A stretch of DNA of 59,070 nt from a virus (lineage: Duplodnaviria; Caudoviricetes), in IMG/VR virus record IMGVR_UViG_3300048086_000027, positions 1 to 59,070 of that record. The stretch is one strand, 5' to 3'. Made by a program: the position numbers and the translations under genes. Within the stretch, counting starts at the first letter, position 1. Every line of letters begins with the position of its first letter. The notes beneath the pieces are model-generated. The model had not been told where the DNA came from and did not search any database. It saw nothing but the letters and a program-made list of their open reading frames with translations. Positions 1,782 to 59,070 of the stretch are shown here, piece after piece.

Positions 1782-2936
1782 ATGAGCTTTACCTTTGGCT
1801 CCCTCTTCTCTGGTATCGGCGGTATTGATGTAGGGTTATGCCGTGCTGGAATGCAATGCCTCTGGCAAGTGGAGATAGACGACTATGCGACGAAAGTTCT
1901 TGCAAAACACTGGCCCAACGTTGCCCGGTTTCGAGATATCCGAGACGTCAGCCCCCTTGCAAGGGTCGACCTCATGGCTGGAGGATTCCCTTGCCAGGAC
2001 ATCAGCAGCGCCGGGAGACGAGCAGGAATTACTGGAGAGCGTAGCGGGCTCTGGTCAGAATTCCACCGTCTCATTTGCGAGCTACGACCCAGATACGTGC
2101 TTGTGGAGAACGTCGCAGCTCTGCTTCACCGGGGAGTCGAAAGAGTTCTTGGGGACCTTTCCGCCAGCGGGTATGATGCGGAATGGCAGATGCTACCAGC
2201 GGCAGCGTTTGGCGCGCCGCACCTCCGCGAAAGGATCTTCATTGTGGCGTACACCACAAGTAGCAGACATCAAGAGTTCCAAGCAACAAGCAGGCTACAC
2301 GACCAATCTGACGCACCAGGTGCTAATGTTTCCAACGCCACTCTTCACGGATGCATACGGAGGCAGCACCAACCGCAGCCCGGGCAGCACGAATGTGCGT
2401 CCATCATTAGCCAGAATGGCGACAGGGAACAAATGGCCGACGCCGCGGGCAACAGATGGCAGTCATGGCGGGCCGAATGCCAGGGACAGCAAAGGGAGTT
2501 ACAGCCTCAGTGGAGCAGTCCATCACTGGCCAACCCCGACCGCCAGTCCCTGGCGGTCGGGCAAATCTTCGGAAGCCACGCACGAAAAGAACTCGCGACC
2601 TTTAAGCGAAGTTGCAGCACAGGGTCAGGTATCTGGGCAACTGAATCCAACGTGGGTCGAGTGGCTGATGGGATTCCCAGCAGGGTGGAGCGACTTAGAG
2701 GACTCGGAAACGCTGTAGTACCTCAGATTGCTGAATATATCGGACGGCTTATTCTGGAAAGAGAGGCACAACTATGCCGAGATTCACCCGCCCGCTCCAT
2801 TCGCTGCGCCTGGTGCGATGGGTTGGTTGATCCTGAAACCGTTCAGCAGGTGCCTATTTCTGAAGAAAAAGACAGCGAACTGGTGACAGGCGCTGAACCT
2901 GTCTGCACAGGATGCCTGGAGTATTGGCAAGTATGA
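1782..2936 (+). CDS. DNA cytosine-C5 methyltransferase, alpha chain
   Basis: Motifs I (LFSGIGG), IV (GFPCQ), VI (ENV), VIII (RERIF) and X (LGNAV); motif IX not found in this frame. Confidence 0.92.
   Translation: MSFTFGSLFSGIGGIDVGLCRAGMQCLWQVEIDDYATKVLAKHWPNVARFRDIRDVSPLARVDLMAGGFPCQDISSAGRRAGITGERSGLWSEFHRLICELRPRYVLVENVAALLHRGVERVLGDLSASGYDAEWQMLPAAAFGAPHLRERIFIVAYTTSSRHQEFQATSRLHDQSDAPGANVSNATLHGCIRRQHQPQPGQHECASIISQNGDREQMADAAGNRWQSWRAECQGQQRELQPQWSSPSLANPDRQSLAVGQIFGSHARKELATFKRSCSTGSGIWATESNVGRVADGIPSRVERLRGLGNAVVPQIAEYIGRLILEREAQLCRDSPARSIRCAWCDGLVDPETVQQVPISEEKDSELVTGAEPVCTGCLEYWQV
1885..2718 (+). CDS. Nested alternative-frame beta chain of the C5 methyltransferase (TRD-like repeats and motif IX)
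   Basis: 277-aa ORF in the +1 frame ending LNPTWVEWLMGFPAGWSD (motif IX-like); four (W/F)xTP repeats; M.EcoHK31I-type arrangement; exact start uncertain. Confidence 0.8.
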   Translation: MRRKFLQNTGPTLPGFEISETSAPLQGSTSWLEDSLARTSAAPGDEQELLESVAGSGQNSTVSFASYDPDTCLWRTSQLCFTGESKEFLGTFPPAGMMRNGRCYQRQRLARRTSAKGSSLWRTPQVADIKSSKQQAGYTTNLTHQVLMFPTPLFTDAYGGSTNRSPGSTNVRPSLARMATGNKWPTPRATDGSHGGPNARDSKGSYSLSGAVHHWPTPTASPWRSGKSSEATHEKNSRPLSEVAAQGQVSGQLNPTWVEWLMGFPAGWSDLEDSETL

Positions 2937-2965
2937 AAAAGACCCCCAAACAACGGGGGTCTTTT
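2936..2965. terminator. Bidirectional rho-independent terminator
   Basis: AAAAGACCCCC-loop-GGGGGTCTTTT between convergent genes. Confidence 0.8.
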
Positions 2966-3025
2966 GTACATTGATACGGTGACATGGGCTTCCGTAGAAA
3001 CGTATCAATGAAGCGCCTAAAAAAT

Positions 3026-3352
3026 TTACTCCTCGTCCTCTTTGCCTTTCCCACCGGCGTTTCGATCAACGGGGTACGCTGTCATCAACTCGTCCAGATC
3101 ACTTTTCAAAAGATAGGCATCTGGACGAATTTCCGTCTTATATTGTGTTAATGAACCTTTGTCCAACAATCGCTGTAACACGTTCTGAGTGACCCCGACA
3201 TAGAGCGCCGAGTCTTTCATATTGAACACCTCAACCTTTGTACCATCACTGAGTCTGAGCAGTATTGGTTCAGGAGCCTCATCTGTTTTCTTTGCATAAG
3301 CCCTCGCTTTGCTCTTTTTGATATTCTCTGTGGTCATTTCGTCTCCTTGCAT
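3026..3352 (-). CDS. Putative HTH DNA-binding protein
   Basis: FNMKDSALYVGVTQNVLQRLLDKGSL resembles an excisionase/MerR-type HTH. Confidence 0.55.
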   Translation of the reverse strand: MQGDEMTTENIKKSKARAYAKKTDEAPEPILLRLSDGTKVEVFNMKDSALYVGVTQNVLQRLLDKGSLTQYKTEIRPDAYLLKSDLDELMTAYPVDRNAGGKGKEDEE

Positions 3353-3465
3353 CTCTTTTTCCCTACCTTATCCACACTCTCTACTATTCTCACTGTTTCA
3401 CACTATGTCATAAGCAGTATACAGTATATTAACGAGATTTCGCAAGAAATTGACGATTTTCCCAA

Positions 3466-4875
3466 TTAGAACACAAGATGTAGTGTCTGCAACACAGGCT
3501 TTATCTCTTTCGCTGGAAACACACGGGTCGCCCCATCAGGTGATTTCGTCCCTTTGAGTTTGTCGAGCGTCACCCGAACAGCATCACGCTCAATGTGCGC
3601 TCTGAGCTGGCCCATATCCCAGAGACGTCCTGCACCATCGGGTGTCTCTACCCGCTCTGAGACACACAGCCGTTCAAACTGCTCTTGTGTGTCCATGGTG
3701 TGCTGAAAGTTTGGTGGCAGTTCTGGCTCATCTCCCCCTTGCAAGGGGGTTGGTTCAGCAGGTGGTTCGAGCTGCGCAGCCCACAATCCTGCTTCTACCC
3801 AGCCTCGCAGCGTTGTACCAGTGAAGACCTCAAATTCAGGTCCTAGCATGTCATTTGGATCTTTGAAGCGCAGCTCACCACTCCATTCATCAGCCCAGGG
3901 CCGCCAGCGTTTGGCATGTGATAGTAGATGCAGCCACTCCTGGGCGCCTGCATCACCAGCAGGGTCTGCATCAAAGCTTTGCAGCACAATTGGGCGTATA
4001 GAGAGCTTCGACGGCCAACGACTATGTGCCCACTGTCCACCCTTACCATGATCTTTCCCACCAGTCGCCACGCAAGAAATGAGATCTCCAGCTTCCTGAG
4101 TCACTGAGAGGGCACATAGTTCACTTTCTACTATCATGGCAGGCTTGCCAGATTGTAGCGTGTCTACGCCATACAGCCCCTTCGCGCTGCCCTTAATTTG
4201 GCCGTAGGGCATGATATCCTCTCCTGGCCGCTTCATGGCCAATTTCCAGACAATGTCCCCTTCAAACCATGGGATCAGGATACCGTTTGGAATACGAACG
4301 CCGCCCTTTTCCTTGTCAACATCCGTCAACTGCTCTGGATCAAAACCCCACCAACTAAAAGGCTCTTTGTACCAGCGTCCATCCTGGGCCAGCGGCACAT
4401 AGCCTATTCTGGCTTGTTTAATGATCTCATCACCCAGACCGCGTTCCCAGAGGTAGATCAATGCCCTGCGTCCTTCTGGGCTCTTAGGATGCCAGAGGTA
4501 CTTTTCAGCGCGTTCAATCAGGAGTAACGCTGACTCCTGCCATGCCTTGCAAGGGGGCTGGTGCGCGGAAGATGCATGTACAGGAGAAGGCACATAGCCA
4601 TCTCGCTCAATGCCCAGCTCCTGGTAGGCATCGCTGTAGGAGAGGCCAGCGAAATCGACCAGGAACTGCACAGGACTGCCCTCGCGCCCACATTGACGGC
4701 ACCACCAATGATCTCGCTCACCGCCTATCCAGACATGAAACCGATTCCCATCATTGCTTGTACCACACCAGGGACATACCCCCCAATATTCTGCCCCAAA
4801 CTTGAAGTGGTTAGAGCGCTTTGTCATGCTGATCCCAGCCTTCTGCTCAATCAGTGAGACAAGATCAATGTTCAT
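3466..4875 (-). CDS. DNA primase (zinc-binding domain and TOPRIM)
   Basis: CPWC...CRQC zinc ribbon; IVESELCA and FDADPAGD TOPRIM motifs; KDPND. Confidence 0.85.
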   Translation of the reverse strand: MNIDLVSLIEQKAGISMTKRSNHFKFGAEYWGVCPWCGTSNDGNRFHVWIGGERDHWWCRQCGREGSPVQFLVDFAGLSYSDAYQELGIERDGYVPSPVHASSAHQPPCKAWQESALLLIERAEKYLWHPKSPEGRRALIYLWERGLGDEIIKQARIGYVPLAQDGRWYKEPFSWWGFDPEQLTDVDKEKGGVRIPNGILIPWFEGDIVWKLAMKRPGEDIMPYGQIKGSAKGLYGVDTLQSGKPAMIVESELCALSVTQEAGDLISCVATGGKDHGKGGQWAHSRWPSKLSIRPIVLQSFDADPAGDAGAQEWLHLLSHAKRWRPWADEWSGELRFKDPNDMLGPEFEVFTGTTLRGWVEAGLWAAQLEPPAEPTPLQGGDEPELPPNFQHTMDTQEQFERLCVSERVETPDGAGRLWDMGQLRAHIERDAVRVTLDKLKGTKSPDGATRVFPAKEIKPVLQTLHLVF

Positions 4876-6086: not shown

Positions 6087-7769
6087 TTAGTCTTCCTCAT
6101 CCCGCCGTTCCCTCAATTGATATTTCAGCGTGCCATACGCTGTCGGAAAATCATCAATCATCTTCGCCCGTTTCATCCCGGCTAACGCATCTTCCAGCTC
6201 CTTCACACTTCGTTTTTTCATATATGATGTTCTAATGGCGTTGAGCGTCAGCGCTCCATGCTTGTGCAAATGACGTTTGATCTCGTCTTCAATGGTGGCT
6301 TTCTCTGAGAATTGCGAGATTGGCGCATTCACCTGGGCATACAACTCGTGCAAATTCCTTCGCAACACTTCCGCCAGCTCCTGGGCTCTGGCCCAGTGCC
6401 GCATCTGAATATGGTTATTATTGGAGAGACTTGCCATAACCACCGCCATCCTCATCGCCACCTCTGGGAGCCGTGTATAGCTACCGTTAAAGTCACGATG
6501 AGGGAATGAGAGGCACATCTGCTTGAGCGCCACGTAGTACCGCTGGTAGGCTTCGTGGGCGTCATCATCGATGCGGCAGGCAGTTTGTGGTAAGGGCGCT
6601 CGTTCAATCCTGTACTTACCCGTCGGTTCGTCATTCTTGAGCACAGGGATTAACTGACACTCAGGGATACCTAGACGATGATGCCAGTTGATGAGGGCCT
6701 CAATAAGCGATTGAGGCGGGAGCAATTCACCAGACTCGAAGGGATGAAATTTGACGGTCTCAGGACTCGGCGGGGGCGCTGCGATAAAGCTAAAGCGCGC
6801 CCAGGTGCCATCTGTCCAGAAATCTGCGCCTGATCTTGCATTCTCTTTGAGGTTAGGAGGCGTCATCGAGCCGAGGAGCGCGATATACGGGCTCTCAATT
6901 GGTTCACCGCCACGGGCAATGGTATCGGTTTCATAGAGGGGTGGGCAGTCATTAAACTTCAAAAAGATGTCCGCAAAATCAGCCATCACGCTACTCTTGC
7001 GCAGCATCGACTGTACAAACTTGCCGAATTCATCGAAGTAGAGGCCACGCTGGCCAGGCATCGCGAGTTTTCTCCTGACATGTTCTTGCTTCTCTGGAGA
7101 AAGCTCGTCATAGCTTGCTGGCACATGCACGCCTGCCATATTGCTGAGCAGCTTCTGCGGCGTGATGTAGTCAGGGCCAATCAAGTAGCTGAGTCCAGCC
7201 CTGGTGAGGATGTTTTTCATGACCCGCGCGGTAACAGACTTCGCGAACATGGAAGAGTCAGCACAGAGGGCAATCATGAGATTGGAATAGACCGGCCCCC
7301 CTTGCAAGGAAAGATGCACCCGGCGGGCGGCCACCGTTGAAAAGCCCCAGAGGCCACAGAAGAGGTGAAAATCATCATACCCCTCTGGGCTGGCCTGCCT
7401 GCTAAAGCGTTCATAGATGTCCAGTTCCGGGCAGGCGCCGCGACTGAGACCTGAAGGCAGGTGAGCCTCTACTGGCAATGGTGACAGCAGCGCCTCTGGT
7501 GCAGACTCTACTTTTGCCGTCTGCTCTCCAAGGAGATCCCTGAGCGCGGGGTGCTGTCTGTACAGCGTTTCAAAGGCCCGTGCCAGAGCGTCTAGATCCC
7601 CGTCAGCATCCCTGACTGCCTCCTCTGCCGACGGTGCAATAGTGGCCCAGAACTCCCCCAAGTCTGGGTGTGGTTCGATGAGGTGACCGCTACGCGCCGC
7701 TGAGAAATAGACACGGGCGAGCTGGTCATAGATCGATTGTGGAATAGACGGTCTTACGACTGTTGCCAT
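6087..7769 (-). CDS. DUF3987/YfjI-like P-loop protein (probable replicative helicase partner of the primase)
   Basis: Degenerate Walker A (ADSSMFAKS), Walker B (YFDEFG), DGTWARF; located in the replication cluster. Confidence 0.65.
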   Translation of the reverse strand: MATVVRPSIPQSIYDQLARVYFSAARSGHLIEPHPDLGEFWATIAPSAEEAVRDADGDLDALARAFETLYRQHPALRDLLGEQTAKVESAPEALLSPLPVEAHLPSGLSRGACPELDIYERFSRQASPEGYDDFHLFCGLWGFSTVAARRVHLSLQGGPVYSNLMIALCADSSMFAKSVTARVMKNILTRAGLSYLIGPDYITPQKLLSNMAGVHVPASYDELSPEKQEHVRRKLAMPGQRGLYFDEFGKFVQSMLRKSSVMADFADIFLKFNDCPPLYETDTIARGGEPIESPYIALLGSMTPPNLKENARSGADFWTDGTWARFSFIAAPPPSPETVKFHPFESGELLPPQSLIEALINWHHRLGIPECQLIPVLKNDEPTGKYRIERAPLPQTACRIDDDAHEAYQRYYVALKQMCLSFPHRDFNGSYTRLPEVAMRMAVVMASLSNNNHIQMRHWARAQELAEVLRRNLHELYAQVNAPISQFSEKATIEDEIKRHLHKHGALTLNAIRTSYMKKRSVKELEDALAGMKRAKMIDDFPTAYGTLKYQLRERRDEED

Positions 7770-8197
7770 AGAGGTTCGTCCTTCAACAGACTGATTTCAA
7801 CGTCGGTATGAGGATCGTTCTTATCGACAAGCTTCCTCACATGCAGGTCAACAAGCAGATTGTCATTGAGGATAAGATGCGCAAAGACCGCATCTATCGT
7901 GTGTTTAATCCCTCCATCCACATCTCTGCGCCACATGGTTTCAAAAAAGAACGTGATTTCCCCTTGCAAGGGGGTTTTGCGAGGAAGTGCATGGCGGATC
8001 TGCTCCCAGAGCGTCACATCCACCTTTGTTTGGGACAGCTCGAGTGCTGCATCCTTCTTGAATTGCCGAAGCTCAGGCGTTTCGCCTAGCCGTTGATATT
8101 CCCTCCCACCTGCCCGCCGTATTCGCACGATTTTATATGAAGCGTTAATGCCAGGCGGCAATGGAAGCCGCCCTCGAAATAAGACTGTCATAGACAT
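7754..8197 (-). CDS. rusA: RusA-like Holliday junction resolvase
   Basis: PPGINASY, RRDVDGGIKHTIDA, NDNLLVD. Confidence 0.75.
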   Translation of the reverse strand: MSMTVLFRGRLPLPPGINASYKIVRIRRAGGREYQRLGETPELRQFKKDAALELSQTKVDVTLWEQIRHALPRKTPLQGEITFFFETMWRRDVDGGIKHTIDAVFAHLILNDNLLVDLHVRKLVDKNDPHTDVEISLLKDEPLWQQS

Positions 8198-8741: not shown

Positions 8742-8947
8742 CCGTAGAGACAACTGAATAGCCGAAAAGGAAATCGAGATCAATCGCCCGGAGAACTGCT
8801 GCTCCGGGCACTGATTTTTATAGAACAGCCCTTCATCCGTCTGATCTACGAAGGGATACAGATAGATCGCTTCGTAGAGCAAAAACGCCCAGGCTTTTCA
8901 CATCCTCCCTGAAGGCCGCCGGGCGTTTTTGTGTGCCCGATTCTCCC

Positions 8948-8976
8948 TTGCAAGGGGGCTGAGGCTTTGCTATACT
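8948..8976 (+). promoter_or_regulatory. Promoter of the ncRNA cluster
   Basis: TTGCAA (core of the iterated palindrome), 17 bp, extended -10 TGcTATACT; predicted TSS at about 8983. Confidence 0.7.
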
Positions 8977-11071: not shown

Positions 11072-11392
11072 TGCTCTCACCTGCCTTTGAGCAATGGTAT
11101 ACGAGCAATCGACTTGACAATAGTGGGCGCATACGCTATTGTTAAAGAGCAGTTGTTTTAAAGCAATTGTTTTTAAACAACTGAGAAAGCAAGGAGACAT
11201 CCAAGACACTTTTCGACCCTTTGTCTCCAATTGCATCACACCCGGACAGATGAACTAGTCATGTGACTGGTTGCCATCCGTTCCCATCTGTCCGGGCGGG
11301 CTATCCATATTTGAACACACAAAAACACCCAGGAAAGCGGCCCTTACACGCTCCTGGGTGCTCTCTCGTTCAGATGTCCCCTTGCAAGGGGG

Positions 11393-12761
11393 TTATGGTT
11401 CTCTTTCGATGGATTGCTTCCCTGTTGCCTTGTCAATCACCAGACGAACAGAGGGCGTAACACTATACATCTCAGCACTAATACTTTGAAAATACTCTGA
11501 CGCCTTCACCCAGGCATCCATTTCGTCCATACCAGACTGAACAAGGGATTCCATATAGTTTCGTGCCATGTCTGCGTTGATTTGTTCAAGCGGTGACCGT
11601 GGGCGATACAGTGGAATTGATTCTCGCTTTCGTCGTCTCATTTCTTGCCCTCTCTTTTTGTGCCATCATCGCATAAAAGATGCGCCCTTGCAAGGGTGCA
11701 TCTCATCGGTTCAGTCTCCCTATTCCTCCACCTCCTCATCCAAATACGTGGCCACCTCATGACGCTGAAGCAGCGCTAGCAAAAGTCGAACTTCAGCCAG
11801 TGGCAGCATGACGAAGGATGATGGTTCCTGGCTGTCCTTGGTTCGGTAGATTCCGATCACCAACTCTGGCTGGTCGCCTGGAATGCGTGGCAGCGGGTGA
11901 CAGAACGTCAAACCGACGTGGTGGCCAGTATCACGGTCATAGCTCACAGTGGTCTCAAAGCTGGAATGGCGGAAATGCACGCTGCCAGGCACAATCGTTG
12001 GTGGTTCGCTGGGTAGAAGAGTGACGGGATAGGCGATATCGTTCGTTGCCATAAGAAAAACTCCTTTCAAATTTCCATACCCAAAATTTCGAGGATGACC
12101 GGGCTCCACAAGTGCTGGACCAGCAATTGGGCCTCGCGTTTTGTCAGATCAATGACACTATCTTGCTTCCCAAGGCGGCTATGGGCAAAGGAAAGCGTCG
12201 AGATACCCTCCTGATTGCGAATAGCCGTAATCTCGATTAACTCCTCTGGCCCACGGCGCAGGTACAGCGTGCAGTCAGCAGCAAATTCAGGCTGTTCTGG
12301 CGGCATGTGAGACTCCTTTCAGATCGTTTTGCCGCGATAGATCAAATCGGCTTCCTCTGGTGTCAAGAGGCCCTCATCAATGTCCTGGGCTAGCTGCCCA
12401 ATAGCGGCCTGATCCTCTTTACAGGGACAATGCGGATCTGAGCAGAAGAGGTCTTCGTCAGTGTGCTCTTCTATGGGTTCATCGTCGTAGATGACTGGGA
12501 TGGGTTTGTTTTCAGTGGAAAGAATCGTGCTCATAAGTGTCCTCCTTACCAGACTTGATCTAACAGGGTCAGCAGGTATCTTGTGGGGTCTGCAAGTTCA
12601 TCGGTAAAACAGTATGAGAGGCTATCGAGTGTGCTCTGGAGGACACCGGAGACATAGGCGCCAATCTCAGGCTGTGCATCCTTGTTTTCAAGGAGTTTTT
12701 CTATGGTCGTTGTGGCGCTCCGTATGGCACGTAGCGCGTCTTTCTCAGTGCCTTCGATCAT
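11393..12761 (-). other. Cluster of small hypothetical early genes (11393-11641, 11720-12052, 12067-12306, 12319-12534, 12546-12761)
   Basis: Closely packed co-oriented ORFs, most with AGGAG/GAAAGG-type RBS. Confidence 0.6.
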
Positions 12762-12819: not shown

Positions 12820-13257
12820 TTAGGCAGTTCGGAGAAGACTAAAGCCCTGGTTGCCCATCTCTCCCCTTGCAAGGGTGCGTTGCTTCGGCTTGTGGCCCAT
12901 GATCCGCTCATATTCGGCATCGGTGGCGGGCTTGCCGTTGAGGGTGAGAGAGTGCTCGCGAGCTGGAGCAGTGGTTTGTTTGCGGGCCTGAGCGCGCATC
13001 TGGCAGCGAGTAGAAACCAGTTTCGTGTGTCGGCATGGAATACGACTCGGGCAGGTGTCCTGCCAGGTCATGAGATCAGCGCTCCAGCGAGCGACATAAT
13101 ACGAGCCATCATTCTTAGAAGATCTGACCAGGTAAAAGACTTCCCCGGCCTCAATGCCATATTCCGGCATGTCCTGGTTGGCGGTGCAGCGGATCGTTGC
13201 AGCGTCGCAGTGCTCGATACGGACGGTTTTCTGAGTGGCGATTGTGGCTACTGTCAT
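12820..13257 (-). CDS. Hypothetical protein with a SWIM-like metal-binding motif
   Basis: YLVRSS...YYV...DTCPSRIPCRH; RBS AAGGAG. Confidence 0.55.
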   Translation of the reverse strand: MTVATIATQKTVRIEHCDAATIRCTANQDMPEYGIEAGEVFYLVRSSKNDGSYYVARWSADLMTWQDTCPSRIPCRHTKLVSTRCQMRAQARKQTTAPAREHSLTLNGKPATDAEYERIMGHKPKQRTLARGEMGNQGFSLLRTA

Positions 13258-18751: not shown

Positions 18752-18843
18752 GGGCTACCCCCTTGCAAGGGGGAAAGAGGGGACTTTTGAACAGGGGATG
18801 CTGGCTCAACCCAGGTGAGAAGCGTGTCCAGTGCCGATCATTT

Positions 18844-19102: not shown

Positions 19103-19461
19103 AACCTTGCAAGGGGGAGAGAACGGAACAACTACAGATTTCAGAACTGCAGATGGTGAAGAAGGCTCAAAAATTATCTTTGATGATTCTGACCTTGCAA
19201 GGGTGAGGAGGGAGGTATTTCATATAGTTATTTTTCTACACACTAAAGAAAGATAGATATTATAATAATAACCTATTTTTATTATGTATATACATTCTGT
19301 TGTATGGACAAGATAATGATTTATTCCTCTATGGAAAGTCTTTCTTTACGAACAAACATCCTACCTCCCTTGCAAGGGCAAACACTCCAGAGGAATCTGA
19401 GGGCTTCTCCACTCTCTTGACTTCTGAAATCTTTGGGTGATGTGTTCTACCCTTGCACGGT
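19103..19461. repeat. AT-rich core flanked by imperfect inverted repeats of about 100 bp (candidate origin or packaging site)
   Basis: 19103-19213 resembles the reverse complement of 19358-19461; each arm is bounded by two CCTTGCA(A/C)GG motifs. Confidence 0.65.
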
Positions 19462-23453: not shown

Positions 23454-24096
23454 CTTTGATGAGAAACGATTGCTCTCTGTTTTAGAGCGCATTGCAGCCG
23501 CATTGGAACGACACAATGATATCAGCGAAAAGCATCTGGCGCTTATAAGGGAGGAATTAACAGCGAGTGATGCCCGTCTTCAGACGCTCTATGCAGAGCA
23601 AGCGACTCTTACCCCCTTGCAAGGTGAGGAGGAGGCGGTGAAGCATGAATGATGAGTATTGGTGCATTGTTGTTGATCGTGGTGATGGGAAGGAAACATT
23701 GATTCATGAGGGTAACGATATTGACAAAGTGTATACGCGTATCGGGCAGATGGTTCTCAGTTTGGGAATAGAACAGATTGTGGTGTATCGAAATGGTGAA
23801 GAGTATCGACGCTATGCTTTGTCGTCTCAAATAATGCACCAAACTGGTATACAAAATGCACCAGATGGGCGGTGAGTGATGAAACGACTGTTGGTTCTTT
23901 ATACATCTGCTATGGCAAAAGAGAAAAGGTATGCAGAGGGATTAATTCATTTTGACGGTTCGGTGTATGTGGATGGTTTTTATCCCGAAGAAGGAAAGCC
24001 CTATGGTGATTTGGAAGCATTGAAAAATGCTTTGCGAGACAATGATGGTATCAGGCATTGGTATATTCTTTTGCTTGATGTTGATAAGGAGCACAG

Positions 24097-41041: not shown

Positions 41042-41617
41042 ATGCGAGAACAGATTGTCTTTTCCAGGGGTGGCTATCCAATAGGGAACCGCGAGCCAGA
41101 TCGCTCGTATTGGGCAATCAAGCTGAATGATGGAACGTGGCTCTGTGAGTTTGATCCTGTAGGATTGAACTCAACATTAGATTGGACGCTCGATATTGCC
41201 GGTACGAACGACTGGGCAAAGATCACTGAGTTATGGATGATTTGCCCGACAACGCCATTGTCACCAACTGGCAATGCTGCACGATTGCCCATCTCACCTG
41301 CTGGGACGGCGTTCCAACTCAAGGTTGGCATGGTGTTTAGCAACATTGGAGAGTCGGTGAAGAGCTGCAAAGCGCAGATCATTGGGCGGGTTGTGGACTT
41401 CGAGACTGGGGCTGCCGAGTGCTTTGTCTTCGACTACACAGTTCCTGGGCTTATTGCCAACTGGAAAACACATATCGGGCTTCCTGGTCATCCTACAATG
41501 GGGTTATGGCGCCCAAATTTGCCAGATGAGCCGAGCTTTGCGCCTATCGGGCGGTTAAGCTTGCCAGTTCTCGGCATCCATCTACCCACCCTTGCAAGGG
41601 GGTATGCCGATGGCTAA
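41042..41617 (+). CDS. Hypothetical protein, paralog B1
   Basis: SYW...W/TL.E.D...W..D motif shared with 45618 and 49665. Confidence 0.7.
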   Translation: MREQIVFSRGGYPIGNREPDRSYWAIKLNDGTWLCEFDPVGLNSTLDWTLDIAGTNDWAKITELWMICPTTPLSPTGNAARLPISPAGTAFQLKVGMVFSNIGESVKSCKAQIIGRVVDFETGAAECFVFDYTVPGLIANWKTHIGLPGHPTMGLWRPNLPDEPSFAPIGRLSLPVLGIHLPTLARGYADG

Positions 41618-46103: not shown

Positions 46104-46411
46104 AGTTACGAACCCTCTGTCAGATATCCAGGCGTAATCCAGCCATTCGATATGCTTCCATCGGTGGCCTTGAACTGGCTCAGATTGAATGTAGCGGTGG
46201 TCTGTGGCTGGTCAATGCTGATTCGCTGGAGAAGAGAAAGGTCCATCTCTACCGTCTCGCTGGGTGCAATGGTGCGCTGTGTGATCCATTTTCCATCGAT
46301 ATATTCCTCAAGACGGGCAGGGATCGAAAAAGTATTTTGAAAAGACTGTTTCATCTGTTTCCTCTTTTTGCTAGACAGCATATCACCCCTTGCAAGGGGG
46401 TGATATGGTAA
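46100..46411 (+). CDS. Hypothetical protein
   Basis: Overlaps both neighbours in the operon. Confidence 0.45.
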   Translation: MKLRTLCQISRRNPAIRYASIGGLELAQIECSGGLWLVNADSLEKRKVHLYRLAGCNGALCDPFSIDIFLKTGRDRKSILKRLFHLFPLFARQHITPCKGVIW

Positions 46412-50143: not shown

Positions 50144-51142
50144 ATGGTAGCGCAATTTGTCGATGTATCGGCGTTTCAGGCTGAAACGCTCGATTGGAGT
50201 GCATATCGAGTTTGGGCCTCACAGGGCGGCTCCCTTGCAAGGGTGGCTATCCGCTCTAGCTTTGGCGTTGGCTATCTGGATCAGCATTTCCAGGCATATA
50301 GGGCTGGCGCACTAGCTGCTGGAGTAGACTCTATTCTCTACTATCATTATGCCTATCCTCAGTTCAATAGCGCCAGCGCAGAGGCGGACTGGCAGCATCG
50401 CATTGTCGGTACCGTTCGGCCTCAAGACCAGCTTGTTCTGGATTTTGAAGAGAATGTCAATGAGGCAACAGCGGAATGGGCCTATCAGTTCCTGGCCAGG
50501 CAAGAGCAGAATTATGGGAAGCTTCCTGTAATCTATGCCAGTGACTACTACATTCGGCAAAGGCTGCAAGACGCACGGCTCGCCAAATATCCGCTCTGGC
50601 TCGCGAACTGGCAATACTCATCAGACGCTCGGCCAGCCTGCCCACCACCATGGAAGGTATATACCTACCTCCAGTACACCGACAAAGCTGTTTCTATCCC
50701 AGGGATCGCTGGGACGGTGGATGCAAATATCTATCTCGGAGGAAACACAATGCAGATACCACAAGGTTGGAAAGACGACGGCACGACGCTCACGGCGCCC
50801 AACACTATCCCAGTAATCAAAGGATTTCGGGATTTTATCCTTGCCCACCCATGGGACCCCAACAACTACCCCCTTGCAAGGGAGGAGGGGCGCAATCCAG
50901 TAGAAGTGTCCAATCCGTCCTTGGGACCTGGCACCCAGCAACTCTTTCGGCTCTTTCCTTTGGAGTGGACACAGGATAGAGGGGTGTTCCCAGCCTGGGG
51001 CGGGCAAGAGATACTGGCGCTGCGTGCCCTGGTTGCTTCCTTGCAAGGGGAGAATACCCGGCTTGCGCAGCAGCTCGCAACCCAAAACAGTGACCTTGTA
51101 GCGCGTCTTCAACAGATTCACAGTTTGTCTAGCATTTCTTAG
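50144..51142 (+). CDS. Endolysin, GH25 muramidase
   Basis: DVSAFQ, YHYA, LDFEE, LWLANW, QYTD, VDAN motifs. Confidence 0.9.
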   Translation: MVAQFVDVSAFQAETLDWSAYRVWASQGGSLARVAIRSSFGVGYLDQHFQAYRAGALAAGVDSILYYHYAYPQFNSASAEADWQHRIVGTVRPQDQLVLDFEENVNEATAEWAYQFLARQEQNYGKLPVIYASDYYIRQRLQDARLAKYPLWLANWQYSSDARPACPPPWKVYTYLQYTDKAVSIPGIAGTVDANIYLGGNTMQIPQGWKDDGTTLTAPNTIPVIKGFRDFILAHPWDPNNYPLAREEGRNPVEVSNPSLGPGTQQLFRLFPLEWTQDRGVFPAWGGQEILALRALVASLQGENTRLAQQLATQNSDLVARLQQIHSLSSIS

Positions 51143-51153: not shown

Positions 51154-51453
51154 ATGCAACTTCCATCTGACATCGCATTCATTGTTGCGCTCCTGGTGAG
51201 CGTCATGTCAAACTTTTTGCGCTCTGACGGATTGCCCAAAGCGGCCAACGCAGTCATTGCTATTGTGGCTATTGTGTTGATTGCTGGCGCAATAGGCTGG
51301 CTTACCACGGGCTTCACGCTCGACATTAAACAGGATGTGCTCTTGATTATCAGCATCATAGTGAGCTTGTTTACCGGTCTGAAGGAATTGAATGATCTGC
51401 TGGCCTACCTGCAAGCGGCCAATTCCCCCTTGCAAGGATCCGAAACGCCCTAG
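51154..51453 (+). CDS. Holin (3 TM)
   Basis: Three hydrophobic helices directly after the endolysin. Confidence 0.75.
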   Translation: MQLPSDIAFIVALLVSVMSNFLRSDGLPKAANAVIAIVAIVLIAGAIGWLTTGFTLDIKQDVLLIISIIVSLFTGLKELNDLLAYLQAANSPLQGSETP

Positions 51454-52696: not shown

Positions 52697-52705
52697 TTTG
52701 ATTGG

Positions 52706-53560: not shown

Positions 53561-56468
53561 CTGGGTTGTTCCTTTCTGGCCGTGTCGAGCACGGCGGTAA
53601 TCTTCGCGGTAGCATAGGCGTCAATGGCCTGTAATCGTGGCAATTGTGGCAAGGTCACCAAAAATAAGTGACCAAACATCACTCGTTTCATGAGGCTCAC
53701 ATTCTGGCGTGCCTGTTGTAGACGTACGCAGAGCGGGCAGAGTGTGCCAGGCTCAGCACACCAGCGGCATTGATAGGCGCCACAAGAACAGGAGAGCCAG
53801 GTCAAATCTTCGCAGTACAGGCATGGGAGCATCACGCGGCTTGCTCCTCTGTCTGTTCTAGTGGACGCTCCTGGACACGGGCCAGGATCTTGCCAGGACA
53901 GGCTTGATCTTCAAAGATGTCCACAATCTCCCAACGCCGGTAGGCTTGTACGTAGCGATGGCGCAGAGCCATCTGGAAGGCGTCAAGGATCAGGGACTCA
54001 CTCATATCGGTGAGGTGCAACAAGGTTGGATCAATAACTGCAATCTCGACAACTTTCTCATTCATCGCTTTTTGCTCCCTCTCGATTTTCCTGCTCTGCT
54101 TTTTCATGGATGCATCGGATGAACTCTCGTACCTCGACCAACCCGGCAATATTTGCAGCAAGACCAGGGCTTGCACAACGATTTTGTTCATGCTGCATAA
54201 AGCCAATGGCGTTGGAAAGTTCAGAGATTGCTTTTAGCGTGTCTAACTCATTGGTCATCGCTGTTTCGCCCTCCATTCTTCTTCTAGTTGGGCAATTGCG
54301 CTTTCTGCAATGCCCTGATAGTGATCCGTAATTGGTGCTGGCTCAGCATTGGACTGCGCTTTTCCCTTGCGGCCTTGCACCCATTCAATGAGCAGCGTCA
54401 GCAGATACAGTGCAATATGGAAAAGTGCAAGGACACAGAGTCCGAACCCAATCAGGGCAGCACATATCATGCCCAGGAGTGGCCAATCAACGTAACGCAT
54501 GTGGCTCACCTCGCACAATCACGTCATAGGTAAAACTGCGCTCGCACGTGTATGGGATTGGCAATGAATTCAGCCGTTTCGGATAGAAGGACTTAAATGG
54601 ACGTCCAAACGTGATAAAGCGCCCAACAGAGAGCACAATGACCGATGGATAGAAGCCCTGGACAAGATAGAAGCGCTCGACAACAGCCTCTATGAGATCA
54701 AAGGTATGTTCGTAGGGATTCACCACACGAAGGTAGTGCCTACCCAGCTTGTCCATTGGCAAGCCTGGAGGCCTCACCAGAGCATGAGGAACCAGGATCT
54801 GGGTTTCTGTATCGATAATGTGTTGTGGTCTGGCTTCGCGTTCTACGGCACGCAAGCGGATCGGTGAAAGCGTCATTGCGGTGGCTCCTCTCCGAGCAGG
54901 ATAAGCTCTCTGGCGTCTAGTACTCCCTTCTCTTCACGCCATTCGCTGTCAGCGAGATCATCTACGCTATCTGTCAAATTATGATAGGCTTCAACGAGAT
55001 CCTGATATTTCCTCACTACCCCTTGCAAGGGAGTGATGTAGAGTTCTTGAATGCGGGCAGCCATCGCCTTAATAGTTGCCTTGTCCTGCTCATTGAACTC
55101 ATCCCAGCTTTGTGGTTCAGCATCGGGCACAATGGCTCGCACGATGTTATGTATAGCTTCTCCTGTAATCTTCACATTTCACCTCTTGCTTTCTGTGCAA
55201 GATACAACCTCGCACACTGATAAATTTTGTCCTGAGCTACGCTGTGTAGCATCAGCCCGGCATCACTCTCACCAGGGCGGCCATAGGGATAACACAAACG
55301 GTATCCTGGCTCATGTGAGAGCGAGACGGCAACAGGGTCACTCTCTGGCGTCTGAGCTACTGAGAACACCCAGTAGCCACCCCTTGCACGGAAATACCAG
55401 GGCAGGCCGTCAACGCGCCCCAGGGCCTGCACCGGGCAATACCCGGTGAGCCAACTAATTTGGATAGCGGAAGCAAGGCGAGTAGGCATCTAGGCGCCCT
55501 CCAGCTCGTTCTCATCGAGCGGAACAATGCGTAGAATGTGGGGAGGTAATTGCTCTTCCTCCATGATGTGGAGCAAAGAATTTGCAAGCACTGATGCGCG
55601 AGCTGCGGCCAAATGCGCACAGCCCAGACAGTTGGACTCATGGACTTCTTGCAAATCCTTTTGAATGGTTTTGAGAACGCCACGTAAGACGTGTTGGTTC
55701 ATGCGGCACCTCCCATGCTGGTGCTGGCGGCGTCTTCAATGACATAGTGCTGATAGAGGCGCCTGATTTCACCCGCAACTTCCGCCGCTCTGCTATCTTG
55801 CTTCAGTTCTTCCCATGGCTTATTCCAGTTCCAGAGGTAAGCAATCGCCTCTAGGAATTGTTGTGCAATCACTTCAGTCTCCCAGGCTTCCTCTGTTTCC
55901 CCAACAGCAAGGCCAGTCGCGAGATGTGTGACGGTGAAAAGCGGCTTCCCATCTTCTGTATCCTCGTCAATCCAATAGCCCAGACCAACGTTGATGGCAA
56001 CCTTGCCGGGATGTGGCAAGACCACCTTTTCACCAGTTTGTTTATGAACACAGGTTGTTTGAATGATGGCATCTTCGTACTTCATGCGGGTTGCTTCCTT
56101 TCATCTGTCTGTGGCTCACGCTGCTTCTGCCACAGATCATGCAAAATTGGTGTATCATTAGGGCCTTTATGGCACTGACAACGGCATGCAGCGTCAAGGC
56201 ATGCGACCAATGTAAGATCAGCTTGATGTCGTTGGGCGGTGCAGTGAAGGGCGTCAGGATGGACACAGCGACACATTTAATCAGACTCCACTTCTTTGAC
56301 TGCTAATAATGCTTCGTACAATTTTTCAGCATCTTCAGCCGTATCGGTAACAAATGTGATAAAGAGCCCAAGTGCCTCCCAGAGCACTTGATTGGGCCGG
56401 TTATCTTCAGGATCGATGCGCAGTTGTACGCATTCGCCCATCTTGTCTGTACCGTCTTTTGAGATCAT
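53557..56468 (-). other. Tightly packed small hypothetical genes (53557-53835, 53832-54062, 54058-54258, 54255-54500, 54487-54876, 54873-55175, 55172-55489, 55490-55702, 55699-56085, 56082-56276, 56277-56468)
   Basis: Co-oriented with overlapping start/stop codons. Confidence 0.65.
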
Positions 56469-57957: not shown

Positions 57958-58048
57958 TTTCTTTCTTCTTTCTTCATTTCAAATTTCCTGAGTGACAGAT
58001 GCATCACAACCTTCCGAAACACCTGCACCTGTCACCTCATGAGATGAG

Positions 58049-58110
58049 TGTACCATAAATAAGATAGAATTGTCAAGAATATTGATAAAGTATCAAGAAT
58101 ATGATAAGAT
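58049..58110. promoter_or_regulatory. Divergent promoter/operator region
   Basis: TTGACA on -, TTGATA...TAAGAT on +; AAGATAGAATTGTCAAGAATA nearly identical to 8237-8257. Confidence 0.6.
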
Positions 58111-58144
58111 GATGGCAATGAAGTACATACACAGGAGGAATACA

Positions 58145-58348
58145 TTGACTGACGACATTTTTATAACCGTTGAGCAGGTTGCTGAACGGCTCCAGGTTCA
58201 CCCGGCCACCGTCACCAGATATATCAATGATGGGCGCTTAGAGGCTATTCAGATTGGCCGCAATTACCGTATCCATCCAGAGGCGTTCAATCGCTTCGTT
58301 GAGCAGCAGAAAGTGGAGACAGTGAAAGGCGCAGAATCGCCATGCTAG
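58145..58348 (+). CDS. Excisionase-like HTH_17 protein
   Basis: FITVEQVAERLQVHPATVTRYI..G.L.A..IGRNYRI; RBS AGGAGG before a TTG start. Confidence 0.8.
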   Translation: MTDDIFITVEQVAERLQVHPATVTRYINDGRLEAIQIGRNYRIHPEAFNRFVEQQKVETVKGAESPC

Positions 58349-59070
58349 AACTGTATCCTGACCAGCAAGAAGCCTTGAATGCTGTTCTGGCTCACTATAA
58401 CGCGCAGCCTGTCGGTGGTCGTGCCCTGGTAGTTGCCCCGACCGGATGGGGAAAAACAGTTTTGTTCAGCTCCCTTGCAAGGGGGCTCGCGGGCAGAACA
58501 GTGCTCATGATTGCCCATCGGGATGAACTGCTCAACCAGGCGCGCGACAAATTCCAGATGATTGATCCTTCTGCTATTGTGGGCAAGGTTGGTGGCGGTA
58601 TCCATGAGTATGGCGCGCCGATCACTGTCGCCGGGATCGACACGATAAGTCAGGAACGGCATCTGAAGAATCTACACAAGTTTGGCTATCACGTGGTGAT
58701 CTGGGATGAATCCCATCATTGCAGAGCGCCAAAATATGAGAAGGTGCGCGCTGTGCTGCCCGATGCTTTTCACCTGGGCGTCACCGCCACACCAGACAGG
58801 CTGGACAAAAAGTCACTTGAACCGCTCTTTGGGAAGCCTGTTTTCCAGATGAGCATTATTGAAGCTATCCAGCAGCATCGACTCTGCGATGTGCGGGCGA
58901 TAGCGATACGCACAGAAACGAATCTGGATGATATCCGTTCATCAAAAAATAGCGACGGTGAAACAGACTTCAATCAGCAGGACCTGGCCCACGCCGTTGA
59001 TACCGACGCCCGTAATAAGCGGTTAGTCGAAGCCTATCAAGAGCATGCCGACGGGCGACGGGCTATCTGC
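58342..59070 (+). CDS. SF2 helicase, N-terminal part (not in the ORF track; continues to 1141)
   Basis: Manual translation: APTGWGKT (Walker A), WDESHH (Walker B), GVTATPDR (motif III). Confidence 0.92.
   Translation, partial: MLELYPDQQEALNAVLAHYNAQPVGGRALVVAPTGWGKTVLFSSLARGLAGRTVLMIAHRDELLNQARDKFQMIDPSAIVGKVGGGIHEYGAPITVAGIDTISQERHLKNLHKFGYHVVIWDESHHCRAPKYEKVRAVLPDAFHLGVTATPDRLDKKSLEPLFGKPVFQMSIIEAIQQHRLCDVRAIAIRTETNLDDIRSSKNSDGETDFNQQDLAHAVDTDARNKRLVEAYQEHADGRRAIC

What the first reader, a model, noticed from the sequence alone, without database searches (positions are those of the whole stretch)
1955..58482. Highly iterated palindrome CCTTGCAAGG dispersed genome-wide (HIP-like)
Seen: at least 25 exact copies by eye, starting at 1955, 3737, 4545, 7300, 7962, 8946, 11380, 11686, 12865, 18761, 19105, 19193, 19368, 23389, 23615, 30549, 39079, 41590, 46388, 50233, 50872, 51039, 51428, 55021 and 58473. 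Many extend to C(3-5)TTGCAAG(3-5), and the variant CCTTGCACGG recurs. About 0.06 copies are expected under uniform composition. Copies occur in all reading frames (PLQG, PCKG, LARG) and between genes, so the signal is at DNA level. Known analogues: cyanobacterial HIP1, DNA-uptake sequences, nucleoid-protein sites. I do not recognise this motif as a described element.
Basis: partly seen in the sequence, partly recalled or inferred. Interest (0 to 1): 0.82.

Follow-up and report, generated by a model that had tools for sequence, protein, structure and literature searches.

The report
Phage-only dispersed palindrome CCTTGCAAGG
A family of temperate phages of Ktedonobacteria carries one short DNA palindrome about every 2 kb through genes and gaps, while the host chromosome lacks it, so something still unidentified reads or writes this word on phage DNA only.

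Summary
All 25 copies sit at the stated coordinates, against about 0.1 expected. The consensus is C2-5-TTGCAA-G2-5.

The HIP comparison holds only in part, because this is not a host-genome signature.
- The integrase points to Ktedonobacteria.
- In 169 genomes of that class the word occurs 0-40 times, against 0-25 for a reversed control.
- The excesses are prophages. In G672, 21 of 31 copies lie between the two 46-bp att repeats of one 52-kb prophage, with none in 38 kb of flanks.

At least 12 other related viral or prophage records carry the word at 0.15-0.47 per kb.

The word is kept at the DNA level.
- The partner genome holds the exact core in 48 of 70 aligned cases, against 5.8 expected.
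- The same primase linker carries it in two reading frames.
- It shows no strand bias, and core substitutions are rare.

Best reading, at about 45%: the recognition site of a symmetric dsDNA-binding protein that is not yet identified. A few copies double as a -35 box or ribosome-binding site.

The hairpin, RAYT, CRISPR-tag and methylase readings were tested and are not supported. The nearest known analogues are the Cluster O 17-bp repeats and stoperators.

This scan found the same word before on two other genomes (e1-5940842, e1-6222895).

The parts
1955..1964 (.). copy inside the C5 DNA methylase gene (1713-2936 +)
   Evidence: Pfam PF00145
3737..3746 (.). copy in the primase gene (3466-4875 -), in a variable linker. 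Relatives G554, G555 and G563 hold the word at the same aligned place, in two different frames
4545..4554 (.). copy in the primase gene (peptide PPCKAW)
7300..7309 (.). copy in ORF 6087-7769 (-), primase-like by PHROGs
7962..7971 (.). copy in the RusA-like gene (7754-8197 -)
8946..8955 (.). copy whose TTGCAA is the first hexamer of a promoter-like site, TTGCAA-17-TATACT (8948-8976 +), just before the tRNA/RNA cluster
11380..11389 (.). intergenic copy between small minus-strand ORFs
11686..11695 (.). intergenic copy between small minus-strand ORFs
12865..12874 (.). copy near the 3' end of ORF 12820-13449 (-)
18761..18770 (.). copy 10 nt upstream of the integrase start codon (18751, minus strand). 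Its AAGGGGG half sits 6 nt before the ATG, at Shine-Dalgarno distance. A copy lies within 80 nt upstream of int in 5 of 7 relatives
19105..19114 (.). copy in the non-coding int-terS region (cluster member)
19193..19202 (.). copy in the non-coding int-terS region (cluster member)
19368..19377 (.). copy in the non-coding int-terS region (cluster member)
19451..19460 (.). one-mismatch variant CCTTGCACGG, fourth member of the int-terS cluster
23389..23398 (.). copy at the 3' end of the portal gene (21951-23453 +). G553 has it at the aligned place
23615..23624 (.). copy directly 5' of a GGAGG ribosome-binding site, 20 nt before an ATG
28801..28811 (.). one-base-deletion variant CCCTTGCAGGG in ORF 28344-29006
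30549..30558 (.). copy in ORF 30488-30922 (+)
33248..33258 (.). one-base-deletion variant CCCTTGCAGGG in ORF 32551-34800
39079..39088 (.). copy in the 1788-aa tape-measure-like gene (34800-40166 +)
41590..41599 (.). copy at a gene junction (end of ORF 41042-41617, just before the next start)
46388..46397 (.). copy whose G-run ends 4 nt before the ATG of the 46.4-48.7 kb ORF (ribosome-binding-site position)
50233..50242 (.). copy in the GH25 endolysin gene (50144-51142 +)
50872..50881 (.). copy in the endolysin gene, inside a 12-residue insertion absent from 6 homologues
51039..51048 (.). copy in the endolysin gene (peptide SLQGE). The word is kept at this aligned column in 5 of 7 homologues, and one more has a synonymous CAA-to-CAG change
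51428..51437 (.). copy in ORF 51208-51720 (-)
55021..55030 (.). copy in a divergent intergenic region
58473..58482 (.). copy in the N-terminal part of the helicase gene (58342-59070 +, continuing at 2-1141)

Best explanation
CCTTGCAAGG (full consensus C2-5-TTGCAA-G2-5) is a lineage-specific DNA word of a clade of temperate tailed phages and prophages of Ktedonobacteria. It occurs about once per 2-6 kb in genes and gaps, and the host chromosome does not share it. Shown: its excess, its restriction to phage DNA, its sharp core, its conservation beyond that of neighbouring bases, and its indifference to reading frame and to the transcribed strand. Inferred: the word is the recognition site of a symmetric (dimeric) double-stranded-DNA-binding protein. 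A minority of copies have a second local use, as the -35 hexamer of a promoter (8946) or as or next to a ribosome-binding site (18761, 46388, 23615).
For: Excess: 25 observed against about 0.1 expected.

Clade-wide: the word is the top 10-mer in 8 of 9 related records first examined. Three relatives fetched by protein homology alone, not by the word, also carry it: G718 has 9, G720 has 21 and G721 has 7. Three distant records (26-31% identity) have 0.

Phage-only: 169 genomes of the host class hold 0-40 copies, against 0-25 for the reversed control. In G672, 21 of 31 copies and all 13 deletion variants seen in the 90 kb fetched around it lie between the 46-bp att repeats of one prophage. There are 0 copies in 16.9 + 21.2 kb of flanks. 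In G712, 16 of 36 copies lie on one 34-kb prophage-like contig.

DNA-level maintenance: in 70 site-partner pairs (50 sites) inside alignable DNA, the partner keeps the exact 10-mer in 48, against 5.8 expected from 67% flank identity. G552 and G559 (85% identity) share the sites exactly while the flanks differ. The same primase linker holds the word as PLQG or as PLARG.

Symmetric dsDNA reading: the core is a perfect palindrome. The longer G-run is on the sense strand 52 times and the antisense strand 51 times in coding DNA, and 16 against 17 in gaps. C-run and G-run lengths are independent (p = 0.30), as expected for two half-sites that degenerate separately. Core substitutions reach at most 3 each, against 93 exact 12-mers in 0.5 Mb.

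Enrichment near starts and in gaps: 29 against 10.7 and 12 against 5.3 of 121. Clusters occur in the non-coding int-terS region.
Against: No reader was found.
- No small HTH protein is shared by all members.
- The two conserved unknown proteins give an OB/Zn SSB-like fold or nothing.

About 58% of copies (70 of 121 by crude ORF calls) lie deep in genes, which is unusual for regulatory sites.

A one-base-deletion form (CCCTTGCAGGG) is also common: 39 in 0.5 Mb, and 12 against 8 exact copies in G585. It changes half-site spacing, which most dimeric binders tolerate poorly.

The word is invariant across phages only 30-60% identical in protein. Stoperators, in contrast, co-vary with their repressor (PMC6550527, passages read).

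The distribution is bimodal, with the site either exact or wholly absent. One site differs by 5-6 clustered substitutions between 85%-identical genomes. Both observations also fit an active writing process.
Confidence: 0.45

Rival explanations
1. The word is written, not read. It would be the product of a biased repair or gene-conversion process acting on phage DNA, as proposed for HIP1 in cyanobacteria. Near-matches are converted to the exact word, and copies persist wherever the protein tolerates them.
For: The motif is very sharp: 93 exact 12-mers against at most 3 for any core substitution. Deviations concentrate at the outer positions, as reported for HIP1 (abstract of PMC4390886 seen). 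The distribution is bimodal, exact or absent. One site is created or lost by 5-6 clustered changes in an 85%-identical pair. Coding copies favour permissive protein regions: 59% against 43% lie within 10 residues of a gap or HSP end, and local identity is 0.42 against 0.47, over 424 site-HSP pairs from 94 sites. One copy sits in a 12-residue insertion.
Against: No candidate machinery is shared. The C5 methylase of the window has a tblastn match in only 1 of 13 related elements (G712 contig). No Vsr-like gene was seen in the ORFs scanned (not all 89 ORFs were scanned). A host-driven process would also mark the host chromosome, which it does not. The enrichment at gene starts and in gaps and the positionally conserved site before int point to use.
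Confidence: 0.2
2. The word acts as a hairpin in RNA or single-stranded DNA: an mRNA processing or stability element, a pause or terminator, a masked ribosome-binding site, or a priming signal.
For: With long runs it folds: the 14-mer gives -6.6 and an 18-mer idealised form gives -11.6 kcal/mol as RNA. The one-base-deletion variant still folds at -2.8. The AAGGGGG half resembles a Shine-Dalgarno sequence, and start codons 4-10 nt after the G-run number 24 against 14.2 expected among 316 site-directions. In Anaerolineae the same core is the centre of a 22-bp palindrome in REP-like intergenic elements.
Against: The invariant part is the centre, which would be loop and closing pairs. The 10-mer alone does not fold, at 0 kcal/mol for RNA and DNA. 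The stem-forming runs are the variable part, and their lengths are uncorrelated. 40 of 121 copies have only 2 C or 2 G on one side with a longer run on the other. There is no bias of the asymmetric forms towards the sense strand, 52 against 51. A fully self-complementary loop is not needed for a hairpin.
Confidence: 0.1
3. The shared word serves as microhomology for modular exchange between related phages, using the phage's exonuclease/SSB recombination module, so that it marks mosaic junctions.
For: Alignment ends fall within 10 nt of a copy in 16 of 719 HSP ends, against 0.7% at random. Copies are enriched at gene boundaries. The clade shares a Cas4-like exonuclease and a neighbouring Zn/OB protein.
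Against: The HSP-end excess is what BLAST produces when a perfectly conserved island lies at the edge of diverged DNA, so it is likely an artefact. Most copies are deep in genes. Ten to fourteen bases is short for annealing-driven exchange; this point is from my own knowledge and was not tested.
Confidence: 0.07
4. It is a host-genome signature (HIP, uptake sequence, Chi-like or nucleoid-protein site) that the phage mirrors by amelioration or selection.
For: Analogy only. The phage's best named integrase homologues are from Ktedonobacteria. Some Chloroflexota chromosomes (Anaerolineae G001, G498, G003) do carry the core many times.
Against: 169 genomes of the host class are at control level. 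Copies stop at the att repeats. Of 401 sampled Chloroflexota genomes, only 2 exceed 2 copies of the 12-mer. The Anaerolineae copies belong to a longer REP-like repeat in genomes of 57-67% GC, at about 20 per Mb, which is 20 times sparser than in the phage.
Confidence: 0.02
5. The word mimics the terminal tag of a CRISPR repeat, giving type III 'self' mimicry or a Cas6 decoy.
For: In relative G718, 5 of its 9 copies are the first bases of a 37-nt repeat in a CRISPR-like array with unique spacers of about 37 nt. Read on the other strand, the repeat ends in CTTGCAAG.
Against: That repeat is in 0 of 169 host-class genomes at up to 3 mismatches. Periodic CTTGCAAG arrays occur in 1 of 169 genomes, where the word is internal to the repeat. 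One copy per 2.4 kb could shield only adjacent protospacers, which is an inference.
Confidence: 0.03

Closest known systems
17-bp dyad-symmetric repeats of Cluster O mycobacteriophages (TGTTCGG-N3-CCGAACA; Cresawn et al. 2015, PMC4351075; passages read)
   Same: Tens of copies of one short palindrome are spread over the whole phage genome (34 in Corndog). The arms are invariant, with very few one-off variants. There is no meaningful orientation with respect to transcription. Copies lie both between and inside genes. The function is unknown, and the authors predict a dimeric DNA-binding protein.
   Different: The word is unrelated and has no spacer. Here more copies lie deep in genes: about 58% by crude ORF calls, against 'about one-third' in Cluster O. 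The Cluster O phages are closely related and not evidently temperate, whereas this clade is deeply diverged (30-60% protein identity), integrates at tRNA genes and still keeps one identical word. The host phylum is Chloroflexota, not Actinomycetota.
Stoperators of Cluster A mycobacteriophages (L5, Bxb1; PMC6550527, passages read)
   Same: Similar numbers of a 13-bp site are scattered through a temperate phage genome, beyond promoters. They are read by one protein, the immunity repressor, to silence the prophage.
   Different: Stoperators are asymmetric and predominantly in one orientation relative to transcription, and their motif co-varies with the repressor between subclusters. Here the word is a palindrome without strand bias and is invariant across the clade.
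HIP1 (GCGATCGC) and alternate HIPs of cyanobacteria (Elhai 2015, PMC4390886: abstract and two passages seen; PMC5861425: abstract only)
   Same: A short GC-flanked palindrome, hugely over-represented, present in coding DNA in all frames. Deviations fall mainly at the outer positions. Whether it is read or written remains unresolved.
   Different: HIP1 saturates cellular chromosomes and goes with cognate orphan methyltransferases. Here the cellular chromosome lacks the word, and a methylase is present in only 2 of 14 elements. TTGCAA does not occur in the text of Elhai 2015.
Start-associated sequences of Cluster K mycobacteriophages (PMC3203893; search listing and abstract only, details recalled)
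   Same: A subset of copies sits right at or just 5' of ribosome-binding sites.
   Different: This is only a minority. Start codons 4-10 nt after the G-run number 24 of 316 site-directions, against 14.2 expected. Start-associated sequences are asymmetric and tied to starts.

Membership tests
HIP1-type highly iterated palindromes | Hyper-abundance throughout the cellular chromosome | tested here: not met
   169 host-class genomes hold 0-40 copies, against 0-25 for the reversed control. In G672, 26 of 31 copies lie in three clusters, one of them an att-bounded prophage and one beside phage-like genes, and 5 are single, against a control of 6.
HIP1-type highly iterated palindromes | Cognate DNA methyltransferase co-occurring with the word | tested here: not met
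   A C5 methylase is present in the window (PF00145). tblastn matches it in 1 of 13 related elements, the G712 contig. Its specificity is unknown.
HIP1-type highly iterated palindromes | One-base deviations concentrated at the outermost positions | tested here: met
   Outer-position variants number 27, 21 and 9, against at most 3 for any substitution in TTGCAA.
Stoperators (Cluster A) | Asymmetric site oriented with transcription | tested here: not met
   The core is a perfect palindrome. The asymmetric flanks lie 52 on the sense and 51 on the antisense strand.
Stoperators (Cluster A) | Motif co-varies with the immunity repressor among relatives | tested here: not met
   The same core occurs in 14 elements with 30-70% protein identity. 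The CI-like HTH protein (10841-11239) is found in only 6 of 13.
Stoperators (Cluster A) | Bound by the phage repressor | not testable with these tools
   Needs EMSA or ChIP.
Cluster O 17-bp dispersed palindromes | Tens of invariant dyad-symmetric copies spread genome-wide without orientation, in and between genes | tested here: met
   The comparison text was read.
Cluster O 17-bp dispersed palindromes | The word itself (TGTTCGG-N3-CCGAACA) and the phage lineage | tested here: not met
   The word is different. The best cultured-phage portal match is 31.6% identical (a Microcystis phage), with no mycobacteriophage among the 12 matching records.
REP elements with RAYT transposase | Intergenic hairpin repeats plus a Y1 transposase that moves them | tested here: not met
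   PF01797 is found in 0 of 5 phage records. 0 of 6 host Y1 loci carry the word. Most phage copies are in genes.
CRISPR repeat tag mimic | Host CRISPR repeats ending in the word | tested here: not met
   0 of 169 genomes hold the G718 repeat. 1 of 169 has a periodic array, with the word internal to the repeat.
DNA uptake / Chi-like host words | Over-representation in the host core genome | tested here: not met

The most novel reading that the evidence does not exclude
The palindrome is a self-mark of a phage lineage. A conserved reader distinguishes phage DNA (one copy per 2-6 kb) from host DNA (about one per Mb) and acts on the whole phage chromosome. Possible actions are prophage-wide silencing, sparing phage DNA from a phage-induced nuclease, or loading a condensing or segregating factor. 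Copies would be actively regenerated by a conversion process, which would explain the all-or-none pattern and the sites written into genes in any frame. The integrase type shared by the word-rich members is one candidate reader, because the one word-poor relative, G718, carries a different tyrosine integrase. That comparison rests on a single genome.
Probability: 0.25. Interest if true: 0.8.

Novelty: new member of a known kind. Interest (0 to 1): 0.55.

Why it matters
Genome-wide short palindromes in phages are known from a few actinobacteriophage clusters, and their purpose is still unexplained. This is a clean, deeply conserved case in phages of a little-studied phylum. It comes with a natural control: the same chromosome carries the word at about 0.4 per kb inside the att sites and at background level outside. 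One carrier is an integrated prophage in a complete 8.9-Mb single-contig chromosome (G672), apparently from a cultured strain. Pull-down, ChIP, methylome and end-mapping experiments would therefore be possible and could identify what reads or writes such words. It is also a practical marker: counting the word finds prophages of this clade in Ktedonobacteria genomes.

Tried and rejected
1. The scan of genome contigs for the 14-mer gave 120 stretches, 80 of them listed, each with a single copy in unrelated taxa. It was uninformative and used the cap.

2. Host HIP reading: rejected.

3. Anaerolineae as hosts: G001, G498, G513, G439 and G003 hold 22-76 copies. There the core is the centre of a 22-bp palindrome inside REP-like composite repeats of GC-rich genomes. 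I treat that as a separate phenomenon.

4. Methylase as driver: not shared among the elements.

5. RAYT/REP: rejected.

6. CRISPR tag mimic: not supported.

7. Hairpin reading: weakened.

8. Mosaic junctions: the 3-fold excess of HSP ends at copies is probably a BLAST artefact.

9. Reader hunt. The presence/absence matrix gave no gene specific to word-rich members except the integrase type, and that rests on one word-poor genome. The model of 57232-57957 (pLDDT 74.6) has only weak RPA-like matches (E at least 0.04), but it has invariant His/Cys3, so it is probably a Zn SSB. The model of 54487-54876 (pLDDT 77.9) has no match.

10. The Atlas search with the terminase gave only 'Viruses' as taxon.

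11. No near DNA match in the phage collection. The best portal match is 31.6%.

12. No RNA holder is listed for the window; the only run is the likely source soil metagenome.

13. Complex prediction was not used, because there was no protein pair to test.

14. Not all 89 crude ORFs were scanned against Pfam or PHROGs; 39 distinct ORFs were scanned in 5 calls. ORF calls are my own greedy longest-ORF calls, which overcall coding DNA.

15. Supplementary files of papers were not opened.

16. My note says '30 of 38' records have 1-3 copies. The table gives 34 of 38.

Unpublished genomes G176 and G649, G677 and G684 are included only in the tallies of 401 and 169 genomes.

Full report
**Observation.** The window is a complete 59,070-bp virus record. 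Dinucleotide shuffles give 0.11 on average, at most 2, and 0 of 100 reach 25. Markov models of order 1-3 expect 0.10-0.11, order 4 expects 0.40 and order 5 expects 1.8. It is the commonest 10-mer, and the 12-mer CCCTTGCAAGGG occurs 17 times. The flanks of the 25 copies are unrelated, so it is a bare word. Across 121 copies from nine related records the consensus is C2-5-TTGCAA-G2-5. The two bases on either side are C or G in 74-80% of copies, and there is little information beyond that.

**What the record is.** Pfam and PHROGs identify the following:
- a tyrosine integrase (17630-18751, minus strand)
- large terminase and SPP1-type portal
- a DnaG-type primase and a second primase-like protein
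- a RusA-like protein, a C5 methylase and a GH25 endolysin
- a Cas4-like exonuclease and several small HTH proteins
- an SNF2/DEAD helicase whose gene runs across the record ends

Rfam finds a tRNA-Pro and a group I intron. There is no near DNA match among 50,697 phage records. The best cultured-phage portal match is 31.6% identical. This is an uncultured temperate tailed phage.

**Host group.**
- The integrase has 237 homologues at E <= 1e-20. The ones that carry an organism name are from Ktedonobacteria, at 51-56% identity: Thermosporothrix sp. COM3, Dictyobacter kobayashii, 'Ktedonobacteria bacterium brp13' and a Ktedonobacteraceae MAG. One further named hit, P0090 at 52%, is labelled Patescibacteria group bacterium.
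- Among 401 sampled Chloroflexota genomes, one (G195) has a 53%-identical copy.
- The class of G195 holds 169 genomes of 2.7-13.7 Mb.
- One of them, G672, has a single 8,879,929-bp contig. That is the length listed for the contig of the brp13 protein.

I take the class to be Ktedonobacteria on this evidence.

**The word is not a host signature.**
- In the 169 genomes it occurs 0-40 times, and the same word read backwards occurs 0-25 times. That is about 1-4 per Mb, against 423 per Mb in the window.
- The largest excesses are prophages. In G672, 21 of 31 copies fall within 6,889,881-6,938,711. Three more fall in a 3.6-kb cluster beside homologues of two window genes, two more lie within 3.4 kb of each other, and five are single. 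The control count is 6.
- The 49-kb interval encodes homologues of the window's integrase (52%), both primases, helicase, exonuclease and tail proteins.
- It is bounded by a 46-bp direct repeat that looks like a tRNA 3' end, at positions 16,902 and 68,749 of the fetched 90 kb.
- All 21 exact copies and all 13 one-base-deletion variants lie between these repeats. The 16.9 kb to the left and 21.2 kb to the right hold none.
- In G712, 16 of 36 copies lie on one 34-kb contig with the same phage genes.
- Of 401 sampled Chloroflexota genomes, only 2 have more than 2 copies of the 12-mer.

**A clade trait.**
- A scan of IMG/VR for the 14-mer returned 114 stretches.
- Counting the 10-mer in 42 of the records behind them showed 8 rich records: G554 24, G559 17, G555 16, G563 12, G552 9, G585 8, G591 6 and G553 4. 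The other 34 had 1-3 copies.
- The rich ones have 41-51% GC. They share only patchy DNA similarity of 67-80% with the window and 30-70% protein identity in a mosaic of core genes. In 8 of 9, counting the window, the word is the top 10-mer.
- As an independent test I fetched relatives by an alignment of the exonuclease, not by the word. The three new close relatives have 9, 21 and 7 copies (G718, G720, G721). A fourth, G719, repeats the spacing of the G672 prophage and is not independent. Three distant records of 100-327 kb have none.
- G718 is an exception. Five of its nine copies are the start of a 37-nt repeat in a CRISPR-like array, and only four are dispersed.

**Evidence that the DNA word itself is maintained.**
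- I took 70 site-partner pairs (50 distinct sites, ordered pairs so both directions are counted) in which a copy lies within DNA alignable for at least 40 columns on both sides. The partner has the exact 10-mer in 48, against 5.8 expected if the core diverged like its flanks (67% identity). The distribution is bimodal: 48 exact, 7 with one change and 15 with two or more.
- G552 and G559 (85% identity over 25.6 kb) share the copies exactly while neighbouring bases differ. One copy in G552 faces a sequence with 5-6 clustered differences in G559.
- In protein alignments the word recurs at the same column. In a gap-rich linker of the primase it encodes PLQG in two genomes and PLARG, in another frame, in two others. 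In a coiled-coil of the lysin-like protein, five of seven homologues use NCC-TTG-CAA-GGN for (S/T/A)LQG, and a sixth differs by a synonymous CAA-to-CAG change. One window copy sits in a 12-residue insertion.
- Coding copies favour less conserved, gap-proximal parts of proteins: 59% against 43% lie within 10 residues of a gap or HSP end, and local identity is 0.42 against 0.47, for 94 sites and 424 non-independent site-HSP pairs.

**Shape of the motif.**
- In 0.5 Mb from 11 elements there are 93 exact 12-mers. Each possible substitution inside TTGCAA occurs at most 3 times, while changes at the outer positions are common at 27, 21 and 9.
- The one frequent internal variant lacks one T or A (CCCTTGCAGGG). 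It occurs 39 times in all, 12 against 8 exact copies in G585, 7 in G554 and 2 in the window.
- Where the two runs differ in length, the longer G-run lies on the sense strand 52 times and on the antisense strand 51 times in coding DNA, and 16 against 17 in gaps. Run lengths on the two sides are independent, p = 0.30.
- The 10-mer core alone has no predicted fold as RNA or DNA. Stability comes only from the variable runs.

Together these points argue for symmetric recognition of duplex DNA and against a transcript-level hairpin.

**Where copies lie.** The classes rest on my crude ORF calls and cover 121 copies.

| Class | Observed | Expected |
|---|---|---|
| Deep in genes | 70 | 100 |
| Near a start | 29 | 10.7 |
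| Other intergenic | 12 | 5.3 |
| Near a gene end | 10 | 4.6 |

In the window the structural block at 24-50 kb has only 4 of the 25 copies. Some copies have a plain local role:
- Copy 8946 supplies the first hexamer of TTGCAA-17-TATACT, with a TG before the second hexamer, just upstream of the RNA cluster.
- Copy 18761 lies 10 nt before the integrase start, and copy 46388 lies 4 nt before an ATG.
- A recurrent pattern is palindrome, then GGAGG, then ATG.
- A copy lies within 80 nt upstream of int in 5 of 7 genomes. The other two have CCTTGCATGG at that place.
- Between int and terS the window has three exact copies and one variant (19105-19460). By eye there is also a tRNA-3'-like stretch near 18850-18888 that could be the attP core.

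**Explanations.** The best-supported reading is a recognition site for a dimeric DNA-binding protein acting along the whole phage chromosome. The closest published parallels are:
- The Cluster O 17-bp palindromes. Corndog has 34, with invariant arms and no orientation, partly in genes. The function is unknown and a dimeric binder is predicted (PMC4351075, passages read).
- The stoperators of Cluster A phages, which differ in being asymmetric, oriented and co-varying with the repressor (PMC6550527, passages read).

The invariance of the word across deeply diverged phages argues for a conserved core protein or a host factor rather than an immunity repressor.

A writing process, meaning biased conversion as proposed for HIP1 (PMC4390886, abstract and passages), is not excluded. 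It is favoured by the all-or-none pattern and the clustered changes. It lacks any shared enzyme, because the methylase is present in only 2 of 14 elements.

The other readings were tested:
- Hairpin, RAYT and CRISPR-tag readings are not supported.
- The recombination-junction reading rests on a likely BLAST artefact.
- Structure predictions of two conserved unknown proteins did not yield a sequence-specific binder.

**Novelty.**
- A full-text search for the word returned only unrelated papers; by their titles the sequence strings look like primers or similar.
- A search on Ktedonobacteria and phages found nothing on this.
- TTGCAA does not occur in the text of Elhai 2015.
- Within this scan the same palindrome was already reported and followed up on two other genomes, with the same verdict (e1-5940842, e1-6222895). 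My tests were made before I read those notes and agree with them.

I rate it a new member of a known but unexplained kind, of moderate to good interest. It offers an experimentally tractable case with an internal control.

**Limits.**
- ORF calls are crude.
- Several counts use non-independent pairs.
- Only one closely related genome pair was available.
- The class name of the host genomes is inferred.
- No RNA data exist for this DNA.
- Supplementary files of the cited papers were not seen.

Noticed in passing
L282 (G718:C1) about 10190-10760: A relative of the window phage carries a CRISPR-like array. It has at least 8 copies of a 37-nt repeat that begins CTTGCAAGG, separated by spacers of about 37 nt. 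The spacers are unique except that the last two are identical. No cas genes were looked for. The repeat is absent from 169 Ktedonobacteria genomes at up to 3 mismatches.
   Followed up: partly
L266, L267 (G001), L268 (G498), L003, L004: In some Anaerolineae chromosomes (GC 57-67%) the same core is the centre of a 22-bp palindrome, CCTCCCCCTTGCAAGGGGGAGG, embedded among other short hairpins in REP-like intergenic composite repeats. These genomes hold 22-76 copies, and sister genomes of the same family hold 0-12.
   Followed up: partly
window 51600-52700: A second over-represented word, TGG(T/C)TCACAC, occurs 20 times, all on the + strand. It comes from a tandem coding-like repeat with an 18/36-nt period overlapping ORFs 51979/52019-52759. 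It is absent from the 13 related elements apart from 1 copy in the G672 prophage.
   Followed up: partly
window 44253-44520: Rfam places a complete group I intron here (RF00028, 72.6 bits). An HNH endonuclease ORF lies next to it (44615-45457, minus strand; borderline PF01844 match at E 3.3e-4 and 21.2 bits, against a cutoff of 21.4).
   Followed up: no
window 57232-57957 (-): A conserved 241-aa protein lies next to the Cas4-like exonuclease. It has an invariant His51/Cys66/Cys74/Cys77 set, and its model has weak RPA (OB-fold) matches. It is probably a zinc-containing single-strand DNA-binding protein, like T4 gp32. The gp32 comparison is recalled, not tested.
   Followed up: partly
G672:C1:6,886,902-6,938,794 (L258-L261): A 52-kb prophage of this clade is integrated at a tRNA-like 3' end and flanked by a 46-bp direct repeat. 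Counting the palindrome was enough to locate it in an 8.9-Mb chromosome.
   Followed up: yes
L292-L294 (G661:C16:33349-33869): A chromosomal CRISPR array in one Ktedonobacteria-class genome has a 37-nt repeat that contains CTTGCAAG internally.
   Followed up: no
window 52706-53560 (-): A 284-aa ORF has a borderline match to the IS110-family transposase C-terminal domain (PF02371, E 4.9e-4, just under the cutoff). It was not found in the related elements.
   Followed up: no
window 58342-59070 and 2-1141: The SNF2/DEAD helicase gene is split by the record ends, with the N-terminal half at the 3' end and the C-terminal half at the 5' end. This fits a circularly closed or terminally repeated record.
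   Followed up: no
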